A DNA stretch of 64,000 nt from a virus (lineage: Duplodnaviria > Caudoviricetes): positions 1 through 64,000 of IMG/VR virus record IMGVR_UViG_3300028887_000102; one strand, given 5' to 3'. Positions within the stretch are counted from its first letter, which is position 1. Each line of letters begins with the position of its first letter. Shown here one piece after another: positions 1,085 through 19,438 of this stretch. Under the pieces are notes generated by a model. It saw nothing but the letters and a program-made list of their open reading frames with translations, was not told the DNA's origin and did no database searches. A program made the position numbers and the translations under genes.

Positions 1085-1453
1085 ATGAATATCAAAGTTC
1101 ACGAATCCAAGAAGATGGAATCCGTAAATACGGACATCATTGATAGCGATAAGGCCAAGTTTAACTTTGATTTGGCTAAAGAAAACATTCTCAAGTTGAG
1201 CGATTTCGTGAATAAGATTCACGGAACGGATATACCCCTTAAACTTGATAGGGGTAGCATCGGTTCGGGTGGCTATGGCTACATTGTGTTTATGACCCGA
1301 CCATTCGGTATTGAAATTAAGTTTAACACAATAGGCAACACCGATGGTTTCATCTATTCCAAGGATGAAAACGAACGATGGAAAATCAATTCTGCCGAAG
1401 ACTTTACCGATAGTCTCGCAGAAGAAATCAAGGCATACAACGAATCCCACTAG
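1085..1453 (+). CDS. Putative capsid-internal protein with MNIKVHESKK leader
   Basis: Leader nearly identical to next gene at protein and DNA level. Confidence 0.6.
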   Translation: MNIKVHESKKMESVNTDIIDSDKAKFNFDLAKENILKLSDFVNKIHGTDIPLKLDRGSIGSGGYGYIVFMTRPFGIEIKFNTIGNTDGFIYSKDENERWKINSAEDFTDSLAEEIKAYNESH

Positions 1454-1462
1454 GGGGATGCT

Positions 1463-1753
1463 ATGAACATCAAAGTTCACGAATCCAAGAAGAATGAAAG
1501 GCTCTCCGATATTTCGCTTGACGAAATTGCTGGCGAAATTGCAAAAGAAGTTAAGAAGCGAATCGAAGATGGCTATGCCGAAACTACCGCAAGCGATATG
1601 GGCTACGAAGTCGGCAAGTCTCTCAAGGGTTGGATGCCCGACATCCTTTTGAATCTTGCAGAAGATGTTATGGACAAACTTGATGTATTCGGTTCGGATT
1701 ACGATAGTTTCTTTGATGCCATTAAAAATGCGGCAGAGAATGCAAGGGAATAA
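1463..1753 (+). CDS. Putative capsid-internal protein with MNIKVHESKKNE leader, acidic helical domain
   Basis: Shared leader. Confidence 0.6.
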   Translation: MNIKVHESKKNERLSDISLDEIAGEIAKEVKKRIEDGYAETTASDMGYEVGKSLKGWMPDILLNLAEDVMDKLDVFGSDYDSFFDAIKNAAENARE

Positions 1754-1759
1754 CCACCA

Positions 1760-2524
1760 ATGATTCAATCTATCGCCATACAATCTTACTTTGCTCAAAT
1801 GAGACATTTCTTTACCCGCCAAGGTTTTGATGGGTCTATGAAAGTTGTTTATAGCGGAGATGCCGAGGGTCCGCAGAGACTCCTTGAGCAAGATATGGCG
1901 AACAAGGAAATGGATAGGAAACAAGGAACGGACAAAGATACCGTTAGGAGTAAGCCGTACACCTATCTATTCTGGACAAAAGGTTCTCTGCAAAACATCA
2001 TCCGCAGACCGGTATATCTCCAAGATGGCTTTTCTCCCGATGGTAAGGCGAAATACAAGAAAACAGTGTCCGCATCGTTCCCGATGGCTTGCACTATCGT
2101 AAGCAACAAAGCGAATCTCATAGAAGACTTTTCCGAAGCATTCGCCGCCGAATACCAGAATATCCACAATGTTCCGGTCAATCTCAAGTATGGGTACGAT
2201 GACAAAGAAACATTTAATACCATCGGATTAGCACTTACGGCTATTCAAGAGTTGGGAAAAGATGAATTAGTGTCATTCCACACTGGCAACTTGTTTGCCT
2301 ATATGTGGGAAGTTATAATCCATTTTAACTTGGTAAGCGAGTTCGCAGATTGGAAGATGGCCCCCTTGAAGAAAGTGGTCGTGGATTTGTATAATCCGAA
2401 TGGCATTCCGCTTGGTTCTCTTGACTATAAAGGAAACCCGATGTGGAAGACCCATATTGCCACGGACGGAACGGAAGTGATTGTCCCGGAAAAGGCTTTC
2501 TTTGAAAAGGACATAACCAAATAA
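1760..2524 (+). CDS. Putative tail terminator/neck completion protein
   Basis: Size, alpha/beta pattern and structural context only. Confidence 0.35.
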   Translation: MIQSIAIQSYFAQMRHFFTRQGFDGSMKVVYSGDAEGPQRLLEQDMANKEMDRKQGTDKDTVRSKPYTYLFWTKGSLQNIIRRPVYLQDGFSPDGKAKYKKTVSASFPMACTIVSNKANLIEDFSEAFAAEYQNIHNVPVNLKYGYDDKETFNTIGLALTAIQELGKDELVSFHTGNLFAYMWEVIIHFNLVSEFADWKMAPLKKVVVDLYNPNGIPLGSLDYKGNPMWKTHIATDGTEVIVPEKAFFEKDITK

Positions 2525-2539
2525 TTTTCAATAAAACTC

Positions 2540-2568
2540 TTGACAACTCATTGACAATTAGTTATATT
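2540..2568 (+). promoter_or_regulatory. Early promoter copy 2
   Basis: TTGACA(2540-2545)-17-TATATT(2563-2568). Confidence 0.85.
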
Positions 2569-2665
2569 AGGGGATGGAGACGGAAAAGAATGAAAATCGT
2601 AAGCATTCCAAGACTATTGGTCAAGATTTTTATTACTTTTATTGATAAACAAAAAGGAGTTTCCA

Positions 2666-3133
2666 ATGAAATACTATGTCGATGACAGCCTTAACAATTT
2701 CAAGTTTTGGAGTGGTGCCGTAAGTAATGCCCAGGAACTTACCTATGACGAGATGCAACAGTTGGATGACATCTTGCCGGAATACTTTGGCGAAGAACCC
2801 CCAAGTGACACGGACATCAATGATATGTTCTGGATGGAATTTGAAACCATCTGCCACGCACTTGGCTATGCCTACATTGATGGTAAGGTTGTCCGTAGTG
2901 TAGAAGACCTCCCCGAAGAACTCCGTCTTGAAAAACTCAAGGAATATCTTGATGGCGAGGGCTGGTCCTATACGGATGAACAACTCAAGAAGATGGATAA
3001 GATTCTCGTTGATAACGAAACCTACAAGGTGGATGTTGATAACGATGACATTGATGACTCCGACCTTTATAATCTTGAAGACGAAGCCAAAGAAGCCGGC
3101 ATCAACACGGAAGAACCAGAAGACAACGACTAA
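2666..3133 (+). CDS. Highly acidic early protein (F-x-F-W-S-G-A / IND-x-FW phage family)
   Basis: AAGGAG RBS before ATG 2666; strongly D/E-rich; first gene after early promoter. Confidence 0.7.
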   Translation: MKYYVDDSLNNFKFWSGAVSNAQELTYDEMQQLDDILPEYFGEEPPSDTDINDMFWMEFETICHALGYAYIDGKVVRSVEDLPEELRLEKLKEYLDGEGWSYTDEQLKKMDKILVDNETYKVDVDNDDIDDSDLYNLEDEAKEAGINTEEPEDND

Positions 3134-3413
3134 TAAAGGAATGGTGCTATGACTCTCAAGAATTTGTTGATGGACACCCATAGCCTTGGAAACAATAACG
3201 GCTCCGGTACAATCCTTGCGGAGTTTAGCACACCTGGTGAAGCCGTCCAGTGCTATCGTTCCGTGTGGGATGCCTTTGATAAGGGCGATATGCTGGGGTC
3301 TTGGCAATGAATGCGTCCAATCTTGGACGTGCCACAATTACTTTACGATTATGATGGAAAAGGACATCGACATCGTGAACGATTACATCCTTATGATTTG
3401 TGGGGAATAATAT

Positions 3414-4676
3414 ATGAAGATTAGTGTAAAATCCAAATCCGAAGACTGCGGAGCATCCGCGGCTTCTCTTGGTGCAATCCCTACCGGTGGTAGCAGAGTC
3501 CGTAAGAACGAGGGTATTGATTTCTCCAAGTATCAAAAGGATATAGATACTACCATTTCTGCCGTGGATGGTGCTATCGGAAAGAAATACGATGACTTGA
3601 GAAAAGACATTCCATCGTATTGGAAGTTGCCACCGGTTCAATTAGCACGCCCCCTTGCGGATGGCTACAAAATATTAAAGTTCGTACCTAATCACATTAT
3701 ACCGGAAACGCACACGATGATTTCCGTGTATATGGATGCGGACAATATCATCAAGTACATCGTCGGCGATATTAAATCGGACAAGGATTTGAAAACTATC
3801 CAGCATCTTGAAGCCGGTGACACCAAGCTCATCCGCAAGTTGTATGGCGATAAGACCTATCGCTCCGAAGCCAATAAAAAAGAATACAATGTCTATGTGG
3901 GTCAATACGAACTCATTATCACGGACAAAGTTCTTGGCGAACCATACGGCTTCATTGATACCGTTCCGCTTTATGACAACCTTGAAGATGATTTGCTTGC
4001 GGATTATCCGTCTGCAACTATCGTCTATGACCAAGACATCAAGGATGAAGTCATTGCGAATGTCTATCCGTGGCTTGAGGGCGATGTGAACAACGGTAGT
4101 GTCCAATTCGCAGACTTTTCAAATGATGTAGCGGAATCCAAGAATGAATCGGAAAACCCAATTTCCAAAATTTATGGAGATGGCAAGATTGTCACACACG
4201 TTAATTCCGCAGATGGCTCGTTCGCAAACGAATACGAACCTATCGGTTATGCCATCTTGAACAACGATGTTGAAGGTCTCAAGGCTCTCAAGAACGGCAA
4301 CCCATCTACACCGAATAATCCCGACCGAACGGCAGGGTGGTATGAAGAAGATGACGATGTGTGGAAGTTTAATTGGGATAATGCCTATGATATGGAGTTC
4401 TATGAAGATTGGGAACGAGTCATCGGCAAGACGAATAACCAAGAAGCCTTGAAGCAAATGCTTGAATACGATAGTGGTTTCATCGTTGCTTCTATTGACT
4501 TTAACAATGCTATCCACGCAGGGTATGACAAGGCTCTCATCAAGAAGTTGCTTGATAATGTTCGAAACGGCATCGGTGACGATGAAGACTTGAAGATTAA
4601 CTATCTTGGCGATGAGGATTTCATTGATGCCGAACATCCCGACCCGATTAAGAATCTTGAAGATTTCTTGAAATAA
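3414..4676 (+). CDS. Multi-domain putative internal-head polyprotein
   Basis: MKISVKSKSE leader; internal VRKNE and AESKNESE linkers. Confidence 0.6.
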   Translation: MKISVKSKSEDCGASAASLGAIPTGGSRVRKNEGIDFSKYQKDIDTTISAVDGAIGKKYDDLRKDIPSYWKLPPVQLARPLADGYKILKFVPNHIIPETHTMISVYMDADNIIKYIVGDIKSDKDLKTIQHLEAGDTKLIRKLYGDKTYRSEANKKEYNVYVGQYELIITDKVLGEPYGFIDTVPLYDNLEDDLLADYPSATIVYDQDIKDEVIANVYPWLEGDVNNGSVQFADFSNDVAESKNESENPISKIYGDGKIVTHVNSADGSFANEYEPIGYAILNNDVEGLKALKNGNPSTPNNPDRTAGWYEEDDDVWKFNWDNAYDMEFYEDWERVIGKTNNQEALKQMLEYDSGFIVASIDFNNAIHAGYDKALIKKLLDNVRNGIGDDEDLKINYLGDEDFIDAEHPDPIKNLEDFLK

Positions 4677-4708
4677 GGGTATATTAGACCTATTCCCATA
4701 AAATTTCA

Positions 4709-4779: not shown

Positions 4780-5178
4780 ATGCAGATTACAGTTAAAGAA
4801 CACAAAGTCCGTGAGGCTAATGAGACATCGCTTGTCTATACCCTAGAAAATGCGATGGGGTATCACATTGAAAATGGTGTTAAGCGCAATGTCTATGGTG
4901 GTTATAGCGGAATTGGTGGTCTAGCAAATAAGCAATTCCGTAGCCCGGAAGACCTAATCGACTATGTACTTAAAAAACTCCGCTTGGGAAAGAAAGACCA
5001 GCAGACCTTGAAGATTACAACCGATAACAACGATTATCGTGTATTCATTATATTTGATTGGGGCACCGGTAGTTCTACTTATGAGGAAATGATTACGGTT
5101 AAAGCCACAGTCACAAAGGATGCAAAGCCCAACGAATATGTTGGCGAAATTGAAAAAGCCATTTCCAATCGAGGTTAA
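4780..5178 (+). CDS. Putative capsid-internal protein with MQITVKEH leader
   Basis: Leader; immediately upstream of prohead protease. Confidence 0.55.
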   Translation: MQITVKEHKVREANETSLVYTLENAMGYHIENGVKRNVYGGYSGIGGLANKQFRSPEDLIDYVLKKLRLGKKDQQTLKITTDNNDYRVFIIFDWGTGSSTYEEMITVKATVTKDAKPNEYVGEIEKAISNRG

Positions 5179-5183
5179 TTACT

Positions 5184-6200
5184 ATGCAGATTGCAGAAGA
5201 TTTCATTCCATTCAAGTGCGAGTTCGTTGATGACATTTCGCAAGTCAATGAATCTGCACAGTCCGAAGTAGCCAATAGCAATGGTACTATTCTTGCCATC
5301 GTCAAGGGTAAACATTTTGTACCGGGTGGTGTATCTCGCAACCGCCGTAAGTACACCGAAGAACTTTGGCAAGCGGCAGGGAAAGACGAAGAAGTTCAAC
5401 GCAAGGTCAAGAATAACCAAATGATTGGTCGTGTCGGTCACGAAGCCGAAATCACGGATGAAGACCTTGGCGAGGGTCGTTATAGCCACTATACCCGAAA
5501 CATCAACTGGGAAACTGGCGAAGCCGAAGATGTCATTCTTAATACACCGATGGGCAATTCTCTTTATACATTGCTCCGTTCGGGTGTCGTGATGTATGTG
5601 TCTTCCAGAGCCGATGGCGATTATAATGGCAAGGATGAAGACGGCAACGATATTCTTGACCCGAAGACCTACAAGCTCGAACGATTTGACTTTGTTCAAG
5701 ACCCCGGATTCTTGGACGCCCACCCCAAGATGATTACGGAATCCAAGCAAGAAAAGGATGAATCCATTGAAATCGCCGTAGCCGAATCGCTTCTCAAGAC
5801 CGCCAAGGAAATCGGGGCAGAACTTGAACTTGACGGCAACACCTATATGGTTGAAAGCGTTGAAAAGGATGCCGTAATAATGTCCGACTGCACCTCTGGG
5901 TCCAGTGACAATTACAAGTTGGAAGATTTTACGGAAGTGACCGAAGACATCCGTAGGTCTATCGTTTTGCATTGCGAAAGTTTGAGTAAGGAAATCAAGG
6001 AATCCCACGAACTTGTAAAGACCCTGCGATTCGCTAACAAGCAAGGTCTCAACGAAGACTTTGTGGAAAAACGCAGAAAGGCCGGTGCTACATTTGAAAG
6101 CATTGAAAAGGAATATTCCACTCCGCAGACATTCAAGGTCGTGGAAACCAAGATTAACAAGAAAGATGACGATTCGTTCTTAACCCGACTCTTTGGGTAA
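5184..6200 (+). CDS. Prohead protease (T4 gp21-like serine protease) with C-terminal extension
   Basis: SRNRRKY, G-x-GH, YVSSRADG and FDFVQDPGF motifs typical of gp21/S77-type proteases; upstream of scaffold and capsid. Confidence 0.9.
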   Translation: MQIAEDFIPFKCEFVDDISQVNESAQSEVANSNGTILAIVKGKHFVPGGVSRNRRKYTEELWQAAGKDEEVQRKVKNNQMIGRVGHEAEITDEDLGEGRYSHYTRNINWETGEAEDVILNTPMGNSLYTLLRSGVVMYVSSRADGDYNGKDEDGNDILDPKTYKLERFDFVQDPGFLDAHPKMITESKQEKDESIEIAVAESLLKTAKEIGAELELDGNTYMVESVEKDAVIMSDCTSGSSDNYKLEDFTEVTEDIRRSIVLHCESLSKEIKESHELVKTLRFANKQGLNEDFVEKRRKAGATFESIEKEYSTPQTFKVVETKINKKDDDSFLTRLFG

Positions 6201-6212: not shown

Positions 6213-6611
6213 ATGCAGATTAAAGTAAAAGAATCTCACAAAAAGAATGAAGCCATTGAAACTATCCCGGACTTATTGTATGCCAAAGGTTATACACCAA
6301 TGGAAGCATCCGATGACGATAGGATTATTGCATATATTCTGTTAAGCACCGGTATAGAAACGCCATCTAACATTTCCGTTGTGGCAACATACTATTACAA
6401 AGATGGTCAATTTTCTACGGAAGTTTTGATTGGCGATTGCGAAAAAGTCTGCACGGAGAATGGTAGTCCAAAAGACCTTTATTGCACGTTCATCGGTAAT
6501 GACCCCGGCATAAACAATATGTCCGTTGAAATGGCTAAAGGTATGCTTTCCGCGGCAGAAAAAGCGGCGAAGTTGTATATAAAAGCCCTTAACCAGATAA
6601 AGCAAGTTTAA
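6213..6611 (+). CDS. Putative capsid-internal protein with MQIKVKESHKKNE leader
   Basis: Leader. Confidence 0.6.
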   Translation: MQIKVKESHKKNEAIETIPDLLYAKGYTPMEASDDDRIIAYILLSTGIETPSNISVVATYYYKDGQFSTEVLIGDCEKVCTENGSPKDLYCTFIGNDPGINNMSVEMAKGMLSAAEKAAKLYIKALNQIKQV

Positions 6612-6621: not shown

Positions 6622-8520
6622 ATGAACTATGTGTATGCAACGGTATCGTATCAAGACGGCAGAAACATTAAGTATGCCGATTCACTTGGTATTGGCAGAA
6701 CTATGGGCGAAGCGGAAAAGAATTTAAAAGATACTCTTTTCAAGTACCACCCGAAAGCAAAGCCTTACTATAACGACATTTACGATGCACAATCACGCCA
6801 TCAAAATTATAATTTTGAGCTTGAAGATGCATTCACGGCATTACGCGGATTGGATAAACACCCCGAACTAATACAAATACTTTTGGATTACATTCCACAA
6901 GCAATTACTAAAAGATTACCGGGTGTTAAAGTTATTTCGGATGCTATTACAGAATCGACACCAAATGGGTACAATGTCCTTATTGACTTACAAGATAGGG
7001 ATGGGAACAAGTTCACATTGGAAGTTGCTTATGGTGGCAACCCGGCTATGCACGTCTCTATATTCTCCAAAGAGAATAATCGCTATGTAAGCGATACTGC
7101 AAAAGGCTATCCACCCGAATGCCCGGACATCAAGAAATTGCTTGACCAATATTACAAGTATCTCAACAACGAAAGTTTAATGAACAAAAGGAGACAACCT
7201 ATGAAAAGGTATGAATGCTCAATGCAGAAGAAAAAGGAATCTATCTCTAAAGCTCTTCCAAAACACGATTGGCTTGACGCCGAAACTTTGGAAAAAGAAA
7301 TAACGAGCATCTTGGATTCCGAAGGCGAAGACATCAAGAAAGATGTTGAGGGTAGTGGCGATGACCCCTACTTTACGGAACTTGCCCTTGAGACGGTTAA
7401 GGATTCCGGGTACTATGGCGATTTGTGCGAACGCATCCAAGATGATATGTACAAGTATGTCAATGGTGGCGATTACAAGATTCCCGGCAACTTTGAACGA
7501 ATCAACTGGTCTTGGGATGAAGACCATAAGGATGGTATCAAGTTTAACGAACTCCGTAATAAGTTGCTTAACGGCATTGACGATGCGGACACCAATGAAT
7601 TTTCTACTTGGGCTATCGACTGGTTCTTTAAGGCTTTTGGAACTTTCGGTATTACATACAAGTTCCGTGACTTGGTTAATGACCTTGCCTACGATTATGA
7701 ACACGAAGACAATGACCCAGAAGAATCCTTGAAGAAAGGCGAAGCCCGAACCAAGCGACCCATTGAAAGTTTTATTGGCGAAGAAAAGATTTTGTTCAAG
7801 CACACGGAAATCCCGAACGAATTGAAGCAAGTGTACGATGCTTGCAAGAAGCGTTTTAACTGCGAACCGAATCTTGTTTCAATGGCAGATTCTTCGGATA
7901 TGGGCTATTACAAAATGAATGGCTCTTATGGAAGTGATGTTAAGATTCGTGTTGAAGTCGAACGCGAAGATGGCAAGTTCATCGTAAGTGTTGATGGTCT
8001 TGACGAAACTACCGGCTACCATTGGGAAACCTTGGGCAAGGGCGAATCCGAAAATATCAAGCAAGCGATTGATTCTGCAATGGCAGAAGTGGATAAGAAC
8101 CTTATGCCGTTTGCTACCAAGATTCATAAGGCTATTAAAGGCGAATCCAAGAAGTCCGAAGCCGAAAATCCGAAAGATGTCATTGGCGATGAACTCCCCT
8201 ATGGTATGATGCAGTATCGTGACGAAGAAACAAAGGAATGGTTGCCTATTCTCGTTAGTATCAATTACAATGACCGTGGTTGGTTCTATGAGGGTCTTGC
8301 TCCGTCGGATAATTTTGGTAATTTCAGTTTTGAAGAATTTAACCGTGGATTCCTCAAGACTTGCAAATCTGGTACGGATAAGTGTGACCAAGAACTCGTT
8401 AATTCTATGAAGAAGTTCTTCACGGAATCTTCTATGGATATTGATAAGATGCCAACTAAAGAAGTGACCAACCTTACGGCATACATTCCGAAGGGAAAGC
8501 CCTACATCGGCAAGGAATAA
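6622..8520 (+). CDS. ESKK-linked polyprotein, 632 aa, with possible internal start at 7201
   Basis: Linkers KKKES, EESLKKGE, GESKKSE; AAGGAG plus in-frame ATG at 7201. Confidence 0.65.
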   Translation: MNYVYATVSYQDGRNIKYADSLGIGRTMGEAEKNLKDTLFKYHPKAKPYYNDIYDAQSRHQNYNFELEDAFTALRGLDKHPELIQILLDYIPQAITKRLPGVKVISDAITESTPNGYNVLIDLQDRDGNKFTLEVAYGGNPAMHVSIFSKENNRYVSDTAKGYPPECPDIKKLLDQYYKYLNNESLMNKRRQPMKRYECSMQKKKESISKALPKHDWLDAETLEKEITSILDSEGEDIKKDVEGSGDDPYFTELALETVKDSGYYGDLCERIQDDMYKYVNGGDYKIPGNFERINWSWDEDHKDGIKFNELRNKLLNGIDDADTNEFSTWAIDWFFKAFGTFGITYKFRDLVNDLAYDYEHEDNDPEESLKKGEARTKRPIESFIGEEKILFKHTEIPNELKQVYDACKKRFNCEPNLVSMADSSDMGYYKMNGSYGSDVKIRVEVEREDGKFIVSVDGLDETTGYHWETLGKGESENIKQAIDSAMAEVDKNLMPFATKIHKAIKGESKKSEAENPKDVIGDELPYGMMQYRDEETKEWLPILVSINYNDRGWFYEGLAPSDNFGNFSFEEFNRGFLKTCKSGTDKCDQELVNSMKKFFTESSMDIDKMPTKEVTNLTAYIPKGKPYIGKE

Positions 8521-8847: not shown

Positions 8848-9312
8848 ATGGTTAAAACAATCAAATCCCGAAAGCTCCGTGAAGATGACGGTGTTGTGAA
8901 AGTCGGTGACATCAAACTTGATGCCGGCACAGCAGAAGTCATTTATGCGGACAAGGAAAAGGACATCCAGGTTGTCGTTTCCGATGACCCAGAAGACCCG
9001 AACGTTGGCATTGTAGCCGTGTTGTCCAACTCTAACGAAGAAGTCGAAGATGAAGAAGTCCTCGGCTCTGCCACCGTTGAGGGCGAAGACAAGAAGGGCG
9101 ATGGTGCCGAAGAAGCAAAGAAAAAGGCTCGCCGTGAAGCATTCCGCAAGCGTCTCGAAGCCCGCCGTTCCAACGGCACGGCAAGTGAACGCCGCGAAGC
9201 ATTCAAGAAGCGCCTTGAAGCACGTCGCACTGCAAGAAAGCAGGAATCCCGCCAAAAGGATATTGCCGAAGCCCGTGCGAAATTCAAGTCTAAACTCGGC
9301 AAGAAAGCCTAA
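8848..9312 (+). CDS. Prohead scaffold/core protein
   Basis: AAGGAG RBS; acidic N-half, repeated RREAF[RK]KRLEARR helical C-half; directly before capsid gene. Confidence 0.7.
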   Translation: MVKTIKSRKLREDDGVVKVGDIKLDAGTAEVIYADKEKDIQVVVSDDPEDPNVGIVAVLSNSNEEVEDEEVLGSATVEGEDKKGDGAEEAKKKARREAFRKRLEARRSNGTASERREAFKKRLEARRTARKQESRQKDIAEARAKFKSKLGKKA

Positions 9313-9331
9313 TCAATAGGAGAAACAAACA

Positions 9332-11125: not shown

Positions 11126-14100
11126 ATGATTATTACTAACGGCTCGGCAATATCCGAATCCAAGAAGAACGAAGGTTGGCTCTTTAATTGGTCTTCCAGA
11201 GAAGACTTGCTTGCAGATGTAAAGCGAGAACTTGAGAAGAACTGCAAGGTCATCAAGCAATTCGGAAATTGGTTCTGCATAGAAGAACCCTACAATAACA
11301 ACAAACCGACCGCCGTTGAAATTCTCATTAGAAATGATGGTGGTCAATACGGCTACAAGGATGTAGATGTCACGGCTGGTCCGTTTGAAACGAATACCGC
11401 AGTAGCAAAGTGGCTCAAGCCCCGACTTGAAAAGTGGGAAATAGACAACAACAAGATTACCGACCACGAAACTAACACGGAATGGGTTTGGATTAACAAG
11501 TGCCTTGGTATTGATGACCAGAGAAAGAATAAGAAATCAATGATTAACTCTCTGCAAAAGGGAGACAAGATTAAGTTAATTCCTACCGTCGCAAATGGTG
11601 CGATAGTGACCTTTGTACAAAAGGATAGTCCGTCCACCATCATCGTGGACTACAACGGAAAGATGATGCGATGCAAGATTGCCTATGTTGAAAGCAAGGT
11701 GGGCGAATCCGGCACAAGTGAAAAGCGAATTGCCCAGAAGTTCGGAGCAAAGAACGAGGGCAGGGCTATTCCCGATAAGACATTGCAGACTATCGTAGCA
11801 AACATCAAATGCCTTGGTAAGCCGGGTAAGGCTTTGTCCAATTACCCGGTCAATCGTAGGGGCGAAGTCCTTGACGAATTGGAACGCCGGGGCTTGCTTG
11901 AACCCGGTAGTATGAATCTCACGGACAAGGGAAACGAAATGGCAAAGGAATGGATTGGTCTCTGCGAAGAATCCAAGAATGAATCCAAGGAGATGACCGA
12001 AGAAGCCGTTTGCGAATTATTTGATGAACTCAACCTTGTCGTGGACAATAAGTGGTTCGATGGCGATAATACTATTCCGGTGTTTGATTGCAGGGATAGC
12101 CTTGATGAGATGGGCGAGACTGTTAGTGTCCGTCTTGAACCACCCTACGAAGCCCGTGTATGGTACACGGATAGAAACCCCCGAAACAACGGATTCACGG
12201 AAGGCATTGAGACCATTGAAGAATTGAAGAATGTCTTGAAGAAGTTCTTTGCGATAGATGAATCCAAGAAGATGGAATCCCATATTAGTGAAGCCGATAA
12301 AGAAAAAGACCCCGAATGGGATGCATACAAGAATAAAGTTAAACAGTTAATCCGAAATAATTACATTACGAATATCACGGATTGGATTAAGCAACGTGGC
12401 AACATCGTAAAGGATGCAGATGGTAATGCCTTTATCAATATGCTTGCTACTTGCTATGACCAATACGATAAAGAAAACCGTGCGGCACATTTCCTTTATA
12501 ATTGGATTAAGGACAATGACCCCGATTATTTTGTAGATGACACTATGGGAAAGGGTGTGATTCTTTTCGTACCGAATAAGCCCAATAGCGAATCCAAGAA
12601 ATCCGAAGGCAGGGTGTCTCCGTATCTTGTAGATGTTGCACACAAGATTCTCAAGGATGAATATGGGTGGACTGCATCTACTACGGATGAAGTAGCCGAA
12701 TGGCTTGCAGACCACAAGTCCGTGTTTGAACACGCTTATGGCGAAGCTCTCCGTGAATACGATGACGATTACACTTGTGTTAAGGCTGGTATTGATGCCG
12801 TTCTTGATGACGAAGACCGACGAATGGTTAATGCCGAAATCGCAATGATGGGCGAGAAGAAATCCGAAGCATTGAATTTCGGTGGATTCAAGAATATGCT
12901 GCGAACCTACAATGTAAAAGGTGGCTCGGTAAAGAATGGGCCGTGGCGTATTTGCGATGGTGCATACGATTTGTGGTTTGAACTTTATTACAATGAAACT
13001 CCGATACTTGGTTGCACCGAAAATGTCTGCAAGTGGTATTCCAACCCCGAAACCGTTGGTATGACTCTTGAAGATTACAAGAAGATTGAAGAATTGATTT
13101 CGTCTGAAATCTTTGCGATTGATACATTCAAGATGCCGGAATCAAAGAAACACGAAACAAGAGAAGATGGCGAACGCGATGTAGATGACTACGATACTAT
13201 GCGCGATGGCTTGAAAGACCTTGGCTTTGAACTTGATTCCGATGTTCGGAACGGTAAAATTTATCCGTATCGCAGAGTATCTAAAGCCACCAAGAATGGT
13301 GTCACATATACCTTTATGATTGAAAGCGATGGCGAATACACCAAAGAAATTGTTGTATATGGTGGTAAGTTCGATAGGAATGAACGGGGCACCAGATTTA
13401 ACAATGTGACGGAATTGCTTAACGCTATGAAATCGGTTAGCGAATCCAAGAAGTCCGAAAGCAAGAAGAATGAAGAATTTGAAACTATCGCCGATAGAGA
13501 AATTCAAGTTCGTAAGCCGGGTCAATCTTGGGCAAGATGGACGGTCACGTGGCCCGAATATGTTGAAATGCACAAGCAAGATGCAAAGGATAAAGGTTGG
13601 CCCGAAATCCGTGTTCGTAAACTTGCTCTCAATGGGCGAGATGCCGAAGTGATAGAGGGTCCGGATGAAAGCAATAAGTCCGAAGCGAACATTGAAGACT
13701 TGAAAGACAAGTCTATTAGTTCCGGCACTCTCAAGAGTACCGACTATCTCCCGAAATTCCTTAATGTACTCAAGACCTATGCCCCCGATAAATACGATTC
13801 ATTCGTAAAAGAAAACCCGGAAGTCAATGACCTTGAAAACACCGACCCCGATACATTGTCTTGGCTTGAATCGGATATTTTCGATTTGATGCAAACTATC
13901 GCACCCGATGGAACTACTTTCGGTAGTAGCGAGGGCGATGGGGCAGACTTTGGTTTCTGGTCTATTGAAGAAAAGCGTAAAAAACAAGAAAGCCTTACCT
14001 TGAAGTTGTCCGACCTCAAGCGAATGGCAAAGTATGATGAAGCCACGGACATCACGACAATTTCCGATGCAGAAGCCAAGGAACTCAAGTCCAAGGGCAT

Positions 14101-14218
14101 CGAACTTGTAGGTATTAGCCGTGGCACATACGGAATGAATGGTGCATTGCTCCGTGATAACGATGGCAAGAAATATGTCATCACGGCAAGAAGCACTAAT
14201 CTTTTCTACTTTGTCTAA
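11126..14218 (+). CDS. Large ESKK-linked polyprotein, 1030 aa, about 11-12 small domains
   Basis: About 11 E-S-K-K-x-E-type linkers separating unrelated segments of roughly 40-170 aa. Confidence 0.75.
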   Translation: MIITNGSAISESKKNEGWLFNWSSREDLLADVKRELEKNCKVIKQFGNWFCIEEPYNNNKPTAVEILIRNDGGQYGYKDVDVTAGPFETNTAVAKWLKPRLEKWEIDNNKITDHETNTEWVWINKCLGIDDQRKNKKSMINSLQKGDKIKLIPTVANGAIVTFVQKDSPSTIIVDYNGKMMRCKIAYVESKVGESGTSEKRIAQKFGAKNEGRAIPDKTLQTIVANIKCLGKPGKALSNYPVNRRGEVLDELERRGLLEPGSMNLTDKGNEMAKEWIGLCEESKNESKEMTEEAVCELFDELNLVVDNKWFDGDNTIPVFDCRDSLDEMGETVSVRLEPPYEARVWYTDRNPRNNGFTEGIETIEELKNVLKKFFAIDESKKMESHISEADKEKDPEWDAYKNKVKQLIRNNYITNITDWIKQRGNIVKDADGNAFINMLATCYDQYDKENRAAHFLYNWIKDNDPDYFVDDTMGKGVILFVPNKPNSESKKSEGRVSPYLVDVAHKILKDEYGWTASTTDEVAEWLADHKSVFEHAYGEALREYDDDYTCVKAGIDAVLDDEDRRMVNAEIAMMGEKKSEALNFGGFKNMLRTYNVKGGSVKNGPWRICDGAYDLWFELYYNETPILGCTENVCKWYSNPETVGMTLEDYKKIEELISSEIFAIDTFKMPESKKHETREDGERDVDDYDTMRDGLKDLGFELDSDVRNGKIYPYRRVSKATKNGVTYTFMIESDGEYTKEIVVYGGKFDRNERGTRFNNVTELLNAMKSVSESKKSESKKNEEFETIADREIQVRKPGQSWARWTVTWPEYVEMHKQDAKDKGWPEIRVRKLALNGRDAEVIEGPDESNKSEANIEDLKDKSISSGTLKSTDYLPKFLNVLKTYAPDKYDSFVKENPEVNDLENTDPDTLSWLESDIFDLMQTIAPDGTTFGSSEGDGADFGFWSIEEKRKKQESLTLKLSDLKRMAKYDEATDITTISDAEAKELKSKGIELVGISRGTYGMNGALLRDNDGKKYVITARSTNLFYFV

Positions 14219-14230: not shown

Positions 14231-14488
14231 ATGAAGTACACAATTAACGAATCCAAAAAGAAAGAAGCATATTCGTATGAACCCCATGCAGATGAAAACC
14301 CGAACGAGAAAGAATTGTTCGAAATAGGTGGTATTGGTATCATAGACCCTATGTACGATGACACTATGCGAACAAAGTTCGGCATAATGGATTCCCTCAA
14401 GGAATATGTCACGGATGACTTGTCCGAAGAAGAAAAATTTGAGCGTGTCAAGAAAATCGTAGATTTCTTTGATGCCCACCACAAATAA
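14231..14488 (+). CDS. Small protein with MKYTINESKKKE leader
   Basis: Leader; AGGAG RBS. Confidence 0.6.
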   Translation: MKYTINESKKKEAYSYEPHADENPNEKELFEIGGIGIIDPMYDDTMRTKFGIMDSLKEYVTDDLSEEEKFERVKKIVDFFDAHHK

Positions 14489-14507
14489 CAAAAAGGAAAT
14501 AAAACTT

Positions 14508-15572
14508 ATGATTAAGCCTAACAACCAAATCGTTCTTCTGGCATCCGAAGCCGAAGATATTGATGCCGCCTATGATTCTATGGAAGGGCAGCAAGATTAT
14601 GTTTCCATCGGTGGTGTAGAAATCCCGGTGGGATTTGACCGTTCCGAAAATACTTTCTACCTACTTGACGATGGCGAAGCATCTAGGGATGCTCTTGACA
14701 AAGCAAAGAAGTTGCTCAAGAAGTTCGGTGGTGGACAGTTGAAGCCGACCCCGAACACCAAGGACAACTTGGCAGGGAAAGACTATGTGGCTTTCGCAGA
14801 CGGAAACACCTATATGGTTAATACTTATACGGAATCCGTCAAGACCTTCGAGAGCAAGCGAAAGGTTAGCAAATCCAAGAAGAATGAAGCCGTAGGGGAT
14901 ATTCGTAGGGATGTTCCTATTAACGACACTATGTATGCATCCAAGTTGAAGTCACTTGTTCGTAAGTTGAAAACTTTAGGTGCATCTGTAAAGCCGAATG
15001 TCTATGCCGATGAAAACAGTAATGACAAGTCTGCCGAATACAAGTTGTTAGGTGTTTATGGTAATGATGGCATTACCGTGGACGTGGATATTTATGAAGG
15101 TAAGCATACAAGCATAACAGTCATTACCAACCGTGGTAATATGATTATGAATGGCGAAGGCTCATCTTTTGCATCCGCTTTGTCTGCATTAGGTCTTTTG
15201 GAAGAATCCAATAAAAGTGAATCAAAGAAAAACGAATCCACCGATACAATCAAGATGGGCATAGACTACACGATGTTTATGCGAATGTGCGAATCTGCCG
15301 CATTCCTTGATAAAGATGAAGACTACTGGGATGCTCTTTGGGAATACTATTCCGGCATTGGCGAAATTGACGATGCCCTTGTATTCTTTGACAACTTGTT
15401 CCAGTACACATCTTGGAAAGATGTAGAAGAAACCTACGATGAACTCCCCGATGAAGCCAAGGATGACACCAAGGACAAAGAAGAAGTCATTGATGCCTAC
15501 CTTGATGAAAACGGAGAAATCCGTGGCAACACCGTGACCAAGTACGGAGACCATTATCTCTGGGTTTATTAA
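14508..15572 (+). CDS. Three-domain ESKK-linked polyprotein; acidic C-terminal domain
   Basis: AAAGGA RBS favours ATG 14508; linkers ESKRKVSKSKKNE and EESNKSESKKNES; N-domain paralogous to 16484. Confidence 0.65.
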   Translation: MIKPNNQIVLLASEAEDIDAAYDSMEGQQDYVSIGGVEIPVGFDRSENTFYLLDDGEASRDALDKAKKLLKKFGGGQLKPTPNTKDNLAGKDYVAFADGNTYMVNTYTESVKTFESKRKVSKSKKNEAVGDIRRDVPINDTMYASKLKSLVRKLKTLGASVKPNVYADENSNDKSAEYKLLGVYGNDGITVDVDIYEGKHTSITVITNRGNMIMNGEGSSFASALSALGLLEESNKSESKKNESTDTIKMGIDYTMFMRMCESAAFLDKDEDYWDALWEYYSGIGEIDDALVFFDNLFQYTSWKDVEETYDELPDEAKDDTKDKEEVIDAYLDENGEIRGNTVTKYGDHYLWVY

Positions 15573-16089: not shown

Positions 16090-16108
16090 AAAGAAACTCA
16101 CACCGATT

Positions 16109-16142
16109 AGCCCATCCGAATGGATGTCGGATGGGCTTTTTT
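16109..16142 (+). terminator. Intrinsic terminator
   Basis: AGCCCATCCGA/TCGGATGGGCT stem plus T-tract. Confidence 0.9.
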
Positions 16143-16161
16143 ATAAAAAAGGGTTTTACTT

Positions 16162-16473
16162 ATGATTACCACACTTTTTGAAAATCAATTCGGTTCGGTT
16201 GAACTCAATGACAAATTCTTTGGTGTCTTTGGCTTTATGCCGTTGGACCCGGATGGTCTTTCGGATGACTGCATCTATTATTTTTCCATTGACAACGGTA
16301 CAATTCGTATGCGCGGATGGAACTATGGTAGGGCTTGGGATTCAACCTATGTGAAAGGCGATGAACCCTGGATTTCCAATGACCCCGATGCGGAAGAATC
16401 GGAATTTCACGATGAAGATTACAAGAACGAATTGCTTGAAACACTTAAAAAGTGTATGGTAATAACCTATTAA
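16162..16473 (+). CDS. Hypothetical acidic protein
   Basis: ORF with typical codon usage. Confidence 0.6.
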   Translation: MITTLFENQFGSVELNDKFFGVFGFMPLDPDGLSDDCIYYFSIDNGTIRMRGWNYGRAWDSTYVKGDEPWISNDPDAEESEFHDEDYKNELLETLKKCMVITY

Positions 16474-16483
16474 GGAATCCATT

Positions 16484-17206
16484 ATGGCGATTGACCCGAA
16501 TAAACAAAAAGTCTATCTTGTTAGCGATGACTTGTCCGAACTTTTCCCGGATGCAGAAGACCCAAACGACACCGCCATTGACATCCTTGACGGAACACAA
16601 AGTTCCGTCCATATCAATGGCGAGGATATGCCCGTAATCGTCACGGATGATTATATCCTTATCGACGATTCCAGTGTAGGTGGCGATGAACCCGAAAAGG
16701 CTAGAAAATTGCTTGAGATGTGGGCATCCGATAACCTTTACAATGCCGCCGATGTTGAAAGGGAAAATGATAATGTCACTCCCGATGATGACTACCCGAT
16801 GCGAGTGGACATCGCAGATGGCAACACCTATTCGGTCAATAGTTTCTATCCATCTAGGGAACAAATGGCAAATGCCGTTGTTCACATTTGGAGTGGTAGC
16901 GGATATGATACCGCAAAGTTCTATGTAAATGTCCGTGGCGGTGCGGAAAACATCTATGATGCCCTTGACACGGCAATCGTGATGGCTGAAAAAGAAGCCC
17001 CAGAACTTTTACACGACCCTGCCGAAGTTGAAGCGGAAATGGCTAAAGATGGTCATTATAACCTTGAAACTGGCGAGAGCGACGCAATTTTTGACGAAAC
17101 TTGGCTTTATGAAGATGCCACGATGATGGGTGCGAAGCAACCTTATTATATTTATGTTGAAAACTTTGGAGTTCTCCCGGTAAAGGGACCACTCGCAGAC
17201 AATTAA
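16484..17206 (+). CDS. Two-domain acidic protein; N-domain paralogous to 14508
   Basis: Shared EKA.KLL and ADGNTY.VN motifs. Confidence 0.65.
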   Translation: MAIDPNKQKVYLVSDDLSELFPDAEDPNDTAIDILDGTQSSVHINGEDMPVIVTDDYILIDDSSVGGDEPEKARKLLEMWASDNLYNAADVERENDNVTPDDDYPMRVDIADGNTYSVNSFYPSREQMANAVVHIWSGSGYDTAKFYVNVRGGAENIYDALDTAIVMAEKEAPELLHDPAEVEAEMAKDGHYNLETGESDAIFDETWLYEDATMMGAKQPYYIYVENFGVLPVKGPLADN

Positions 17207-17221
17207 ACGGAGATATACATT

Positions 17222-19438
17222 ATGAACATCAAAGTTAAAGAAAATGCCGGTTCTTTTGAACAATCGTTTGCCAAGATGCTTGATAAAATCTATGGCAACA
17301 ATGGCAATGTCAAGGTGGAAGTAAAGAAGACCCACGATGGAACTCTTTACACGGTATTAAACGATTTCGACCAAGTGGACTTTTTGTTCAAGACCGATAA
17401 GGGAACAAAAGCCCCTACTTGCGATATTACCATTGGTGGTGATACGCTCTTTACGAAAACGGGAGAACCGAAGAAGAAAGTCAAGACATACTATGGCTTG
17501 TTTGATGAAGACCCAACCATTCTCCGTTCGTTCCAGCAAATTTTGCAGAAGTACATCGACGATGTGGACTTGGATTTGCCGTGGCTCCGCTTTGAAGAAT
17601 CCAAGAAGAATGAAGAAAACGAAACGGAACTTTCCAAATTGGTTAAGGCTTATTGCCTTGCTACTGGTGGTAAAGATGCCGTTCCAGATAAAGTTGAAAT
17701 GGTTGATAAGACCACAATCAACGATGACGGTGATGTTCTTCTTGAATTTAATTTTGAAAACGAAAAAGAAAATGGAACATCTGGTACAACCTATGCACTT
17801 GTTTGTGGCGATTTGTACAATAATACGGACAAGGACTTGCTCTATTTCTTACACGATTGGCAGAGTGGCGAAAAGGTCACATCGGAAGATGTCTATGACC
17901 ACGATTGGGAATTGGCTAACGACGTGATTAGACCAAGTGAAATTCTCAAAGAATCCAATAAGTCCGAAGCCAAGCGAAACTACTACGGCTACGGCAAGGA
18001 TGAACCGATTGACAAAGAAGACAATGACTTTATGTACCAAGTTGCTTTAGACTGGTTCACAAAGAAATTGCGTGGTAAACTCAAGGTGTATGCAGACCAA
18101 GCCGTGAACAAGGTCATCGACAAGGATATGGATTCCTACGAAGAAATTGAAACGATGGATGACTACTATGATTACTTGGAAAAGTATGGGCCGGACATCG
18201 TTGAAGAAATCAAGAACGACCATGCCGATGAATCCAAGAAGTCCGAAGCGGATTATAGCACATCTCGCGTGAGCAAGTCCATCGCAGATGCATACAAGTT
18301 GCTTGATGACTATTTCTGCGATAACAACGGTGCATTGAGAAGTGATGCAATCGACAAGATGTACACCACTTTCCGCAACGAAAGTGACTTGACGGCAAGA
18401 AGCAAGTCCAAGGCTACCAAGTCTCATAGTCTTGCTTGGGAAACGCTTATCCGTGAAATCAAGGCAACACTTGAATGGGATGATGAGTTCCCCCATGCAA
18501 CGAGCCTTACATCCGAACAAGTTAAGAACTGGTTCAAGTTGAAGGGCAGGGATTTCAAAGAAGACCTTAAACCGCTTGTGGATGCTATTGATGCTTACCG
18601 CAACAAGAAAGGAGAATCTATGAAGAATGAAGCGAACATTGAAGATTTGAGAAACAAATCTATCTCTCATGGTACGATGCGTTCCGAACACTTGATACCG
18701 GAGTTCCTTGGAGTTCTCAAGATTTATGCACCGGACAAGTACAATGCTTATGTCAAGGCGAACCCGGAAGTTCTGGATTTGGATGGTCTTGACGATGAAA
18801 CCTTGGGCTACATTGTTGAAGAACTTTTTGATGCTCTCAATGACATCGCACCGGAAGGAACTTATTTTGGCGCACATCCGGGTGATGGTTCGGACTACGG
18901 ATTCTGGGAAGTAGAACCCGATGAATCCAAGAACAAGAATCCCGAATCCAAATGTGGCGATGGCAAGGATGACAAGGGCAAGAAGCCCGAAGAATCTGCA
19001 AAGCCGGTAAAGAACATTCTTCGCCGCCGTTTTGAAGTTCTCACGAAATCCGTTCTCCATGCTTGCGATAAACTCGTTAAGGATGCATCTCTCGCAGGGG
19101 AATTTGATGATGAAGTCATCTATGCAGAAGATGCCGTGAAGAACGCCGTTGAATCGTTCAATGCTATGGGCGATGCCATCGTTCGTCTCAAGACCGTTCT
19201 TGAAAGCCATAAGAACGAAGACAATATGGAAATCATCGGCATCTTGTCCGATGCGATTACCAAGATTGTAGCAGACGAGCAGGGCGATGAAACCGATGCT
19301 GCCACGGCTGGGGCAGATAGTGTCATTGACCAAGTTGAAAGGGAATATGGCAACGAACCCGAAAACGAACCGGAAGCGAATGGCGAAGAAAACGAAGCCC
19401 CTAGCCCTGCCGGTGCCGAAGCCCCCGATGAATTTTAA
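17222..19438 (+). CDS. ESKK-linked polyprotein, 738 aa, MNIKVKE leader
   Basis: Linkers EESKKNEENE, KESNKSE, DESKKSE, GESMKNE, DESKNKNPESK, LESHKNE. Confidence 0.75.
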   Translation: MNIKVKENAGSFEQSFAKMLDKIYGNNGNVKVEVKKTHDGTLYTVLNDFDQVDFLFKTDKGTKAPTCDITIGGDTLFTKTGEPKKKVKTYYGLFDEDPTILRSFQQILQKYIDDVDLDLPWLRFEESKKNEENETELSKLVKAYCLATGGKDAVPDKVEMVDKTTINDDGDVLLEFNFENEKENGTSGTTYALVCGDLYNNTDKDLLYFLHDWQSGEKVTSEDVYDHDWELANDVIRPSEILKESNKSEAKRNYYGYGKDEPIDKEDNDFMYQVALDWFTKKLRGKLKVYADQAVNKVIDKDMDSYEEIETMDDYYDYLEKYGPDIVEEIKNDHADESKKSEADYSTSRVSKSIADAYKLLDDYFCDNNGALRSDAIDKMYTTFRNESDLTARSKSKATKSHSLAWETLIREIKATLEWDDEFPHATSLTSEQVKNWFKLKGRDFKEDLKPLVDAIDAYRNKKGESMKNEANIEDLRNKSISHGTMRSEHLIPEFLGVLKIYAPDKYNAYVKANPEVLDLDGLDDETLGYIVEELFDALNDIAPEGTYFGAHPGDGSDYGFWEVEPDESKNKNPESKCGDGKDDKGKKPEESAKPVKNILRRRFEVLTKSVLHACDKLVKDASLAGEFDDEVIYAEDAVKNAVESFNAMGDAIVRLKTVLESHKNEDNMEIIGILSDAITKIVADEQGDETDAATAGADSVIDQVEREYGNEPENEPEANGEENEAPSPAGAEAPDEF

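What the first reader, a model, noticed from the sequence alone, without database searches (positions are those of the whole stretch)
1085..19438. Capsid-packaged polyprotein arsenal: small domains joined by E-S-K-K-x-E prohead-protease linkers
Seen: ORFs 3414, 6622, 11126, 14508 and 17222 (plus 41336) are chains of unrelated domains of roughly 40-170 aa. They are separated by one recurring linker, E-S-[KN]-K-[NSHM]-E, often doubled (ESKKSESKKNEE, ESNKSESKKNES), about 11 times in the 1030-aa ORF. These genes flank the prohead protease, scaffold and capsid genes, and the linker is nearly absent from the many early genes at 31-64 kb. Established: T4 gp21-type proteases cut after Glu in x-x-E sites and trim internal proteins; T4 IPI* is injected and inhibits the GmrSD restriction enzyme. 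Inference: each polyprotein is packaged once and cut during head maturation into many small proteins that are ejected with the DNA, giving a pre-formed anti-defence or host-takeover cocktail. Several domains resemble small acidic stand-alone early genes of other phages, for example GYKDVD..AGP, FGAHPGDGSDYGFW and G.YGMNG.L...Y.ITAR.
Basis: partly seen in the sequence, partly recalled or inferred. Interest (0 to 1): 0.92.

Follow-up and report, generated by a model that had tools for sequence, protein, structure and literature searches.

The report
Phage head cargo polyproteins with protease linkers
An uncultivated ~215-kb phage encodes, around its capsid genes, long proteins made of many unrelated small folded modules joined by one repeated six-residue site that is very probably cut by the phage's own head-maturation protease; this would be a polyprotein way of loading the capsid with dozens of small proteins, which has not been described for tailed phages.

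Summary
E-S-[KN]-K-x-E occurs 17 times in the six-frame translation, always on the + strand in real ORFs. Sixteen of these lie in 1085-19438, against 0.05 expected from residue shuffles.

The window is the first 64 kb of an 80.6-kb IMG/VR contig. Complete relatives are about 215-kb myoviruses.

Homology breakpoints of the 1030-aa ORF against 149 metagenomic relatives fall only at K-x-E sites, which define ten modules. AlphaFold confidence minima fall on the same linkers.

The same site closes short N-terminal leaders found only on head-module genes. It also sits directly after the catalytic domain of the relatives' Peptidase_S77 (T4 gp21-type) proteases, and it has small P1' residues. The capsid protein carries only the looser K-[KR]-Y-E|[A/S/N] form near residue 60.

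In relatives the same modules begin genes exactly at P1' or follow a leader. Only 34-47% of the 38 modules recur in complete relatives, whereas all core proteins are conserved.

Cleavage by the prohead protease is therefore well supported, but it is inferred. Retention in the capsid, ejection and anti-defence roles are untested.

The closest analogues are the T-even internal proteins with a capsid-targeting sequence, the phiKZ/SPN3US ejection proteins, and polyvalent proteins. I class this as a new variant of a known kind. First readers of this scan had already noted the same genes in this genome.

The parts
1085..1453 (+). Small head-module gene: 12-aa leader MNIKVHESKKME, then a 110-aa acidic module
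   Evidence: leader site at 1103-1120
1463..1753 (+). Small head-module gene: leader MNIKVHESKKNE, then an 84-aa acidic module
   Evidence: homologue in the second cargo locus of G003
3414..4676 (+). 420-aa two-module protein with leader-like N-terminus MKISVKSKSE and a degenerate site ESKNE (4134-4148)
   Evidence: C-terminal module 246-420 recurs inside different ORFs of relatives
4780..5178 (+). Small gene with leader MQITVKEHKVRE
5184..6200 (+). Prohead serine protease (Peptidase_S77, T4 gp21 type). The catalytic domain of about 190 aa is followed by ESKQE (5739-5753) and a C-terminal extension
   Evidence: Pfam PF03420 27.9 bits (cut-off 27), phrog_207 E 6.6e-23. Alignment A1: invariant H86, S140/S141, D169/D173; relatives carry ESKK[NK]E at this boundary
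6213..6611 (+). Small gene with leader MQIKVKESHKKNE
6622..8520 (+). 632-aa four-module polyprotein with sites at 7222-7239 (MQKKKE), 7726-7743 (SLKKGE) and 8143-8160 (ESKKSE)
   Evidence: Homology breaks at aa 210, 375 and 513. Aa 194-206 is an internalised leader that still includes its Met
8848..9312 (+). Scaffold-like protein, leader MVKTIKSRKLRE
   Evidence: Conserved directly upstream of the capsid gene in all relatives
9332..10981 (+). Major capsid protein (Gp23 family) with conserved K-[KR]-Y-E|[A/S/N] at aa 55-60 (9494-9511)
11126..14218 (+). 1030-aa polyprotein: 16-aa leader plus ten modules (17-211, 212-286 winged helix, 287-384, 385-494, 495-581, 582-677, 678-783, 784-853, 854-955, 956-1030)
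   Evidence: phmmer breakpoints occur only at K-x-E sites. AlphaFold pLDDT minima fall at the linkers. wHTH fold match Z 7-8.5 over aa 213-288
13991..14215 (+). Conserved C-terminal module (YGMNG...ITAR...NLFYFV)
   Evidence: C-terminal in 61 of 63 homologues, 75-82% identical, nearly always preceded by xxKKSE
14231..14488 (+). Small gene with leader MKYTINESKKKE
14472..15572 (+). 366-aa three-module protein with sites at 14871-14888, 15204-15221 and 15219-15236 (doubled)
16484..17206 (+). Conserved, very acidic 240-aa head-module protein without linkers; its N-terminal domain is paralogous to module 1 of ORF 14472
   Evidence: 46-52% identity in all relatives
17222..19438 (+). 738-aa polyprotein with leader MNIKVKE. 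Sites at 17597-17614, 17951-17968, 18230-18247, 18614-18631 and 19202-19219. The C-terminal region 589-738 is conserved
   Evidence: the HKNE|DN site is conserved in 7 relatives
41336..42565 (+). Outlying 409-aa polyprotein with SFKKNE (41651-41668) and ESKKSE (42020-42037)
   Evidence: Its N-terminal module has a 74%-identical homologue between protease and capsid genes in G003

Best explanation
These genes encode capsid-cargo polyproteins of an uncultivated jumbo myovirus.

Architecture. Each protein is a string of autonomous small folded modules of about 65-270 aa, mostly acidic. The modules are joined by a conserved site E-S-K-K-x-E followed by a small residue (A, S or G). Small single-module genes in the same region carry the same site at the end of a 10-16-aa N-terminal leader, M-x-I-K-V-H-E-S-K-K-N-E.

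Proposed mechanism:
1. The genes are expressed with the head genes. This is inferred from position and strand.
2. The precursors enter the assembling prohead core through the leader and/or the conserved C-terminal module. This is inferred by analogy with the T4 capsid-targeting sequence.
3. The Peptidase_S77 prohead protease (5184-6200) cuts after the last Glu of every leader and linker. It probably also cuts the looser K-x-E sites at its own C-terminal boundary and in the capsid-protein N-terminus. This is inferred from sequence logic and not demonstrated.
4. About 35-40 separate small proteins are released inside the head from 14 genes.
5. Most of them stay in the head and leave with the DNA at infection. 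This is the weakest step.

Gene fusion and fission at leaders and linkers, together with rapid module turnover, let the phage lineage reshuffle this cargo.
For: Motif statistics: 16 strict sites against 0.046 expected. ESKKSE occurs 147 times in 149 homologues from a 1.84-billion-protein library.

Modularity: all alignment starts and ends along ORF 11126 pile up at K-x-E sites (16, 211, 286, 384, 494, 581, 677, 778/783, 853, 955) and none falls inside a module. In the relatives' loci, 31 of 60 HSPs start within 6 aa of a site, against 17 expected.

Structure:
- Aa 1-400 give pLDDT 83.6 and pTM 0.42, with pLDDT below 50 at 1-10 and 195-211 and dips at 281-290 and 381-400.
- Aa 854-1030 give pLDDT 89 and pTM 0.58, with a dip at the KKQE junction.
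- The wHTH fold match spans exactly 213-288.

Protease-site logic:
- The logo from 96 unique sites is P6 E, P5 S, P4 K, P3 K, P2 S/N, P1 E, with P1' A, S or G in 70 of 96.
- All characterised T4 and phiKZ-type prohead proteases cut after Glu, and SPN3US prefers Ser at P1' (PMC5694885, PMC10052503).
- The relatives' proteases carry ESKK[NK]E directly after the S77 domain. This parallels the C-terminal autocleavage of SPN3US gp245 at AQE-203 (PMC5694885).
- The capsid protein has a conserved K[KR]YE|[A/S/N] near aa 60, and the scaffold has KKLRE|D.

Specificity: the leader pattern occurs only in head-module genes and in none of 115 other ORFs.

Equivalence of leader and linker:
- The ANIEDL module follows a linker Glu in ORFs 11126 and 17222. 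In relatives it begins genes as M-ANIEDL or MKKSE-ANIEDL.
- Modules 6622:514-632 and 17222:343-470 are leader-bearing separate genes in G003.
- ORF 6622 holds an internalised leader that still includes its Met.

Accessory character: only 18 of 38 (G003) and 13 of 38 (G002) modules have any homologue in complete relatives, whereas 6 of 6 core proteins are 55-84% identical.

Early-function hint: stand-alone homologues of module 9 lie in early or replication regions of small phages.
Against: - There is no proteomic or biochemical evidence of cleavage, packaging or ejection, and the phage is uncultivated.
- P3 is Lys, whereas known relatives use L/I (T4) or A/S/G (phiKZ, SPN3US), so the specificity has no precedent.
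- The window's own protease has only ESKQE at its boundary, and the most distant relative (L020) has no Glu there.
- DSSP puts low-confidence helices across two linkers.
- The modules are acidic (pI 4.1-5.5), unlike the basic T4 internal proteins and more like scaffold or core proteins that are degraded and expelled.
- No module matched a known anti-defence or effector family in Pfam, PHROGs or the PDB.
Confidence: 0.6

Rival explanations
1. The proteins are cleaved at the linkers but act as scaffold or core material. They help build or size the large prohead. The protease then chops them so that they can leave before or during DNA packaging, as T4 gp22, gp67 and gp68 do. On this view they are not delivered to the host.
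For: The modules are strongly acidic, as scaffold or core proteins are. They lie among scaffold, protease and capsid genes. In T4 and SPN3US, multiple cleavage is thought to help clearance from the capsid (PMC5694885).
Against: The fragments are folded 8-30-kDa domains with pLDDT above 90, not short peptides. The repertoire turns over rapidly between phages whose capsid proteins are 80-84% identical, which is unexpected for essential assembly parts. One module is a winged-helix domain. Another is an early gene in unrelated small phages. A dedicated conserved scaffold-like protein already exists.
Confidence: 0.15
2. The motif is an uncleaved flexible, charged spacer, or a targeting or interaction tag. 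The long ORFs would then function as intact multidomain head-internal or inner-body proteins.
For: Cleavage is not shown. Lys at P3 has no precedent among S77/S80 proteases. Low-confidence helices are predicted across some linkers.
Against: A spacer would not need an invariant Glu followed by a small residue. It would not be expected at the end of N-terminal leaders or at the boundary of the protease's own catalytic domain. It also would not explain why the same modules start genes exactly at P1' in relatives.
Confidence: 0.12
3. The repeat is primarily a DNA or RNA element, such as a recombination hotspot or a regulatory or translational signal. On this view the peptide motif is a by-product.
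For: Nine exact copies of GAATCCAAGAAGnnnGAA are present. Ser-TCC is over-represented at P5, 12/16 against 29%.
Against: GAA and AAG are simply the preferred codons in these genes. Synonymous variants such as AGC, TCA and AAA occur. The motif is always in frame on the coding strand. It is conserved as a peptide across homologues that share under 50% identity.
Confidence: 0.03

Closest known systems
T-even phage internal proteins (IPI, IPII, IPIII, Alt) with a capsid-targeting sequence, processed by gp21
   Same: Both have a short N-terminal leader ending in Glu. The protease is of the same Pfam family (S77). Both are a hypervariable set of small head-internal proteins sharing only the targeting and cleavage signal (PMC3012670, PMC5694885). 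IPI* is an injected anti-restriction protein.
   Different: T4 has one protein per gene and cuts at L/I-x-E, and its internal proteins are basic. Here up to ten unrelated modules sit in one ORF, joined by internal copies of the site S-K-K-x-E, and the modules are acidic. There is no sequence homology to the T4 internal proteins.
phiKZ / 201phi2-1 / SPN3US head ejection and inner-body proteins processed by gp175/gp245
   Same: All are jumbo myoviruses whose gp21-related protease cuts many head proteins after Glu. The protease autocleaves its C-terminus. Some substrates have several sites, and a large mass of internal proteins is ejected (PMC5694885, PMC10052503).
   Different: In those phages the multiple sites lie within propeptides that are discarded, and each gene yields one mature product. 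The motif there is A/S/G-x-E. Here the sites separate folded modules, so each gene would yield several mature products. The capsid protein is only distantly related, with 23-31% identity to its best cultured matches.
Polyvalent proteins of phages and conjugative elements (Iyer et al. 2017, PMC5512222)
   Same: Both have many unrelated domains (2-15) in one polypeptide, are encoded next to virion genes, show extensive domain shuffling, and are proposed to be packaged and delivered with the DNA for conflict with the host.
   Different: Polyvalent proteins are built from recognisable enzymatic and LPD domains and are thought to be processed, if at all, by a built-in MPTase peptidase. Here no Pfam domain is detected, there is no built-in peptidase, and the modules are separated by a dedicated repeated site matching the prohead protease.
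Viral polyproteins cut by a virus protease at a repeated consensus site (picornavirus-like and retrovirus Gag-Pol; own knowledge)
   Same: One translation product is cut at recurring short sites by the virus's own protease, during particle maturation in retroviruses.
   Different: Those are RNA and retro-transcribing viruses of eukaryotes with conserved essential products. Here the host virus is a tailed dsDNA phage and the products are variable accessory modules.

Membership tests
Peptidase_S77 (T4 gp21-type prohead protease), for ORF 5184-6200 | Sequence match to the family model above the curated threshold | tested here: met
   PF03420 27.9 bits against a cut-off of 27, aa 45-188 on profile 51-197; phrog_207 head maturation protease, E 6.6e-23
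Peptidase_S77 (T4 gp21-type prohead protease), for ORF 5184-6200 | Conserved His/Ser/Asp catalytic residues | tested here: inconclusive
   H86, S140/S141 and D169/D173 are invariant in 7 homologues, but they were not mapped onto gp21. No PDB sequence hit was obtained with the profile and the protease was not folded
Peptidase_S77 (T4 gp21-type prohead protease), for ORF 5184-6200 | Cuts after Glu in head proteins and autoprocesses | not testable with these tools
   Indirect only: candidate sites end in Glu, and one lies at the end of the catalytic domain in relatives
T4-type internal proteins with a capsid-targeting sequence | Short N-terminal leader ending in Glu, restricted to head-internal proteins | tested here: met
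   Leaders on ORFs 1085, 1463, 4780, 6213, 14231, 17222 and 11126; none in 115 other ORFs
T4-type internal proteins with a capsid-targeting sequence | Sequence homology to IPI, IPII or IPIII | tested here: not met
   No PHROG or Pfam family of internal proteins matched
T4-type internal proteins with a capsid-targeting sequence | Variable repertoire between close relatives | tested here: met
   18 of 38 and 13 of 38 modules are shared with complete relatives, against 6 of 6 core proteins
Polyvalent proteins (Iyer et al. 2017) | Many unrelated domains in one polypeptide, encoded beside virion genes | tested here: met
   Ten modules in ORF 11126, located within the head module
Polyvalent proteins (Iyer et al. 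2017) | Contains the characteristic effector, LPD, MuF or MPTase domains | tested here: not met
   No Pfam family at E <= 0.1 other than sub-threshold chance hits
phiKZ-like head proteins processed by S80 protease | Cleavage motif with a small residue (A/S/G) at P3 | tested here: not met
   P3 is Lys in all 96 unique sites, which were collected with the pattern S-x-K-x-E that fixes Lys at P3

The most novel reading that the evidence does not exclude
A tailed-phage polyprotein system. A lineage of jumbo phages carries a hypervariable library of small effector modules. The library is reshuffled by fusion and fission at a universal leader/linker cassette. The modules are loaded into the prohead as a few long precursors, diced by the prohead protease, and delivered pre-made with the DNA to act before any phage gene is expressed (host takeover or counter-defence). 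The conserved C-terminal module would serve as the loading handle.
Probability: 0.35. Interest if true: 0.85.

Novelty: new variant of a known kind. Interest (0 to 1): 0.74.

Why it matters
If the linkers are cut, this is the first polyprotein strategy seen in a tailed phage. It would also give a sequence-readable rule (leader or linker, then module) for listing the capsid cargo of uncultivated phages directly from metagenomes. More than a thousand representative proteins in public data carry the same modules and linker.

The system would provide a ready catalogue of candidate early-acting phage proteins. These include a winged-helix module and a very widespread ~100-aa viral domain of unknown function. 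It would also supply a natural cassette for loading foreign proteins into capsids.

It also shows how gene fusion and fission at a protease site can leave the mature products unchanged, which decouples gene architecture from function.

Tried and rejected
- A MAFFT alignment of the whole 1030-aa ORF with 81 homologues (A2) misplaced most rows, as checked, and was not folded. The alignment for ORF 17222 aa 250-738 (A4) also misplaced fragments and was not folded.
- The search for related loci with ORF 11126 found no relative in viral contigs.
- PDB sequence searches with ORFs 11126 and 17222 and with the protease profile gave nothing useful.
- Foldseek against the PDB gave no match at E <= 0.001 for either model. 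BFVD gave only uncharacterised viral proteins. VIA matches for module 9 were generic helical bundles with Z <= 5.3. A weak Spt5/NusG-like resemblance of module 1 (E 4e-3) was not pursued.
- The atlas fold library was unavailable.
- The idea that the repeat is a DNA-level element was examined and largely rejected on codon usage.
- The nearest cultured capsid relative, Rhizobium phage RHph_TM30, has a compact head module without such proteins, so it offers no cultured model.
- The literature searches found no description of such polyproteins in tailed phages. Only the held library was searched, so this is not proof of absence.

Full report
**What the window is.** The window is the first 64 kb of an 80.6-kb IMG/VR virus contig estimated to be 37% complete. 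Contigs whose capsid protein is 71-84% identical to the window's include three complete or near-complete genomes of 213-215 kb. Together with a tail sheath at 23004-25286, this marks the phage as an uncultivated jumbo myovirus. The best cultured capsid matches are only 23-31% identical: Rhizobium RHph_TM30, Acinetobacter, Ralstonia RP13 and Yersinia YerA41, with partial matches to three Bacillus phage records. The host is unknown.

**The observation.**
- The strict motif ES[KN]KxE occurs 17 times in the six-frame translation, always on the + strand inside long ORFs. Sixteen hits lie in 1085-19438 and one is at 42020.
- Shuffling residues within the 17 head-module proteins gives a mean of 0.046 hits and a maximum of 2 in 5000, against 16 observed.
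- Two complete relatives carry 15 and 17 strict copies, all on one strand. These are concentrated around the capsid gene, with one second locus.
- The near-identical linker DNA is mostly codon bias: GAA is 91% and AAG 68% in these genes. Only Ser-TCC is over-uniform, at 12/16 against 29%. The signal is therefore at the protein level.

**The ORFs are strings of independent modules.**
- phmmer of ORF 11126 against 1.84 billion representative proteins found 1250 hits at E <= 1e-3. The matched stretches lie at many different positions in proteins of 61-1316 aa.
- I re-aligned the best 149 locally. Every alignment start and end along the query falls at a K-x-E site (16, 211, 286, 384, 494, 581, 677, 778/783, 853, 955) and none falls inside a module. 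This defines a leader plus ten modules.
- The same homologues contain ESKKSE 147 times.
- Against the relatives' head loci, 31 of 60 HSPs start within 6 aa of a site or N-terminus, against 17 expected.

**Structure agrees.**
- AlphaFold2 on aa 1-400, using an alignment whose placement I verified, gave pLDDT 83.6 but pTM 0.42. Confidence is below 50 at 1-10 and 195-211 and dips at 281-290 and 381-400, which are exactly the leader and linkers.
- Aa 854-1030 gave pLDDT 89 and pTM 0.58, with a dip at the KKQE junction.
- Module 2 (aa 213-288) matches MarR/DtxR-type winged-helix domains over its whole length and no further, with Z 7-8.5 and rmsd 2.1-2.7 Å over 72-76 residues.

**Why the linker is probably the prohead-protease site.**
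- ORF 5184-6200 matches Peptidase_S77 at the curated threshold and phrog_207 at E 6.6e-23.
- All characterised proteases of this lineage (T4 gp21, phiKZ gp175, SPN3US gp245) cut after Glu. SPN3US prefers Ser at P1' and autocleaves its C-terminus at AQE-203 (PMC5694885, PMC10052503).
- Here 96 unique sites collected with the pattern S-x-K-x-E give P6 E, P5 S, P4 K, P3 K, P2 S/N, P1 E, with P1' being A, S or G in 70 of 96.
- The relatives' proteases carry ESKK[NK]E immediately after the catalytic domain. The window has ESKQE there.
- The capsid protein has a conserved K-[KR]-Y-E|[A/S/N] near residue 60, and the scaffold-like protein has KKLRE|D near residue 12.
- The site also ends a 10-16-aa leader (MNIKVHESKKNE and variants). 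This leader is found only on head-module genes and in none of 115 other ORFs. It recalls the T4 capsid-targeting sequence (PMC3012670, PMC5694885).

**Leaders and linkers are interchangeable in evolution.**
- The ANIEDL...GDGxDFGFW module follows a linker Glu in ORFs 11126 and 17222. In relatives it starts genes as M-ANIEDL, MKKSE-ANIEDL or MKTSE-ANIEDL.
- Modules 6622:514-632 and 17222:343-470 are separate leader-bearing genes in G003.
- ORF 6622 contains, at aa 194-206, an internal copy of the second leader type that still includes its Met (MKRYECSMQKKKE|S). I read this as a fusion scar.
- If the protease cuts after the last Glu, all these gene architectures give the same mature protein. This explains why fusion and fission are tolerated.

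**Nature of the cargo.**
- Splitting 14 genes at the sites gives 38 modules of 40 aa or more, nearly all acidic with pI 4.1-5.5.
- Only 18 (G003) and 13 (G002) of them have any homologue in complete relatives, while six core proteins are all 55-84% identical. This is an accessory, fast-turnover pattern.
- Module 9 (phrog_29605, no Pfam family) belongs to a very large family of ~100-aa viral proteins. Three stand-alone homologues lie in early or replication regions of small phages: next to Prim-Pol, DnaB and Dam; among small ORFs before AAA_24 and DNA polymerase A; and beside a dCMP deaminase.
- The C-terminal module 956-1030 is different. It is 75-82% identical across relatives, terminal in 61 of 63 homologues, and usually preceded by xxKKSE. 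It may be an assembly or loading handle. That suggestion is a hypothesis only.
- No module matched a known anti-defence family.

**What is shown and what is inferred.**
- Shown: the motif, its specificity to head-module genes, the modular architecture, the structural independence of the modules, the family of the protease, and the turnover.
- Inferred with good support: cleavage after the linker Glu by the prohead protease. I put this at about 0.75-0.8 on its own.
- Inferred weakly: that the products are retained and ejected, and that they act in takeover or counter-defence. The acidic composition fits scaffold-like material as well as DNA mimics, so the scaffold-clearance rival keeps real weight.

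**Comparison with known systems and novelty.**
- The principle of variable head-internal proteins sharing only a targeting and cleavage signal is that of the T-even internal proteins.
- The scale resembles the phiKZ/SPN3US ejection proteins.
- The multidomain architecture resembles polyvalent proteins (PMC5512222).
- The new feature is the combination: many unrelated folded modules per ORF, separated by a dedicated repeated copy of the leader's cleavage site.
- I found no description of this in the held literature.
- I class it as a new variant of a known kind.

Noticed in passing
window 13991-14215 (ORF 11126 aa 956-1030): The module with YGMNG...ITAR...NLFYFV is almost always the extreme C-terminus of polyproteins (61 of 63 homologues). 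It is far more conserved (75-82%) than any other module. It may be a loading or anchoring handle.
   Followed up: partly
window 7201-7239 (ORF 6622 aa 194-206): This is an internal copy, Met included, of the second leader type (M..[FY].CSMQKKKES) that starts separate genes in relatives. It looks like the scar of an in-frame gene fusion.
   Followed up: partly
window 11759-11983 (ORF 11126 aa 212-286): This module is predicted to be a MarR/DtxR-like winged-helix domain (Z 7-8.5). It is not detected by Pfam. A 79-aa stand-alone form with a leader (P0090) exists.
   Followed up: partly
G003 about 190-200 kb and G002 about 100-110 kb (loci L048, L055): Complete relatives have a second cluster of linker-bearing cargo genes far from the head module. 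It contains homologues of modules that sit in the head module of this window. ORF 41336 is the converse case.
   Followed up: partly
window 16484-17206 and 14472-14890: A conserved, extremely acidic 240-aa protein (net charge about -38) without linkers is present in all relatives. Its N-terminal domain is paralogous to module 1 of ORF 14472. It may be a core or scaffold component.
   Followed up: no
window linkers, e.g. 1103-1120, 11156-11173, 18230-18247: The P5 Ser codon is TCC in 12 of 16 linkers, against 29% of Ser codons elsewhere. This could reflect common descent or gene conversion of linkers, or microhomology used in module shuffling.
   Followed up: partly
window 18047-19576 (-) and 9290-10627 (-): Very long antisense open frames (509 and 445 aa) overlap the real + strand genes. 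They are probably non-coding by-products of composition.
   Followed up: no
window 11174-11758 (ORF 11126 aa 17-211): Module 1 folds as an alpha/beta subdomain plus an SH3-like beta-barrel. It has a weak Foldseek resemblance to Spt5/NusG (E 4e-3) and to ribosomal L21e and CPH barrels (Z 7.3). This is a lead for an RNA-polymerase-directed function and was not pursued.
   Followed up: no
L020 (G005, 131.7-kb complete relative; capsid 57% identical): The most distant relative has leaders ending in [KSN]-x-E|[A/G] (VSSKSE, VSKTNE, GKKNE) but no long polyproteins. Its protease lacks the Glu site at the domain boundary. The polyprotein expansion therefore seems specific to the ~215-kb clade.
   Followed up: partly
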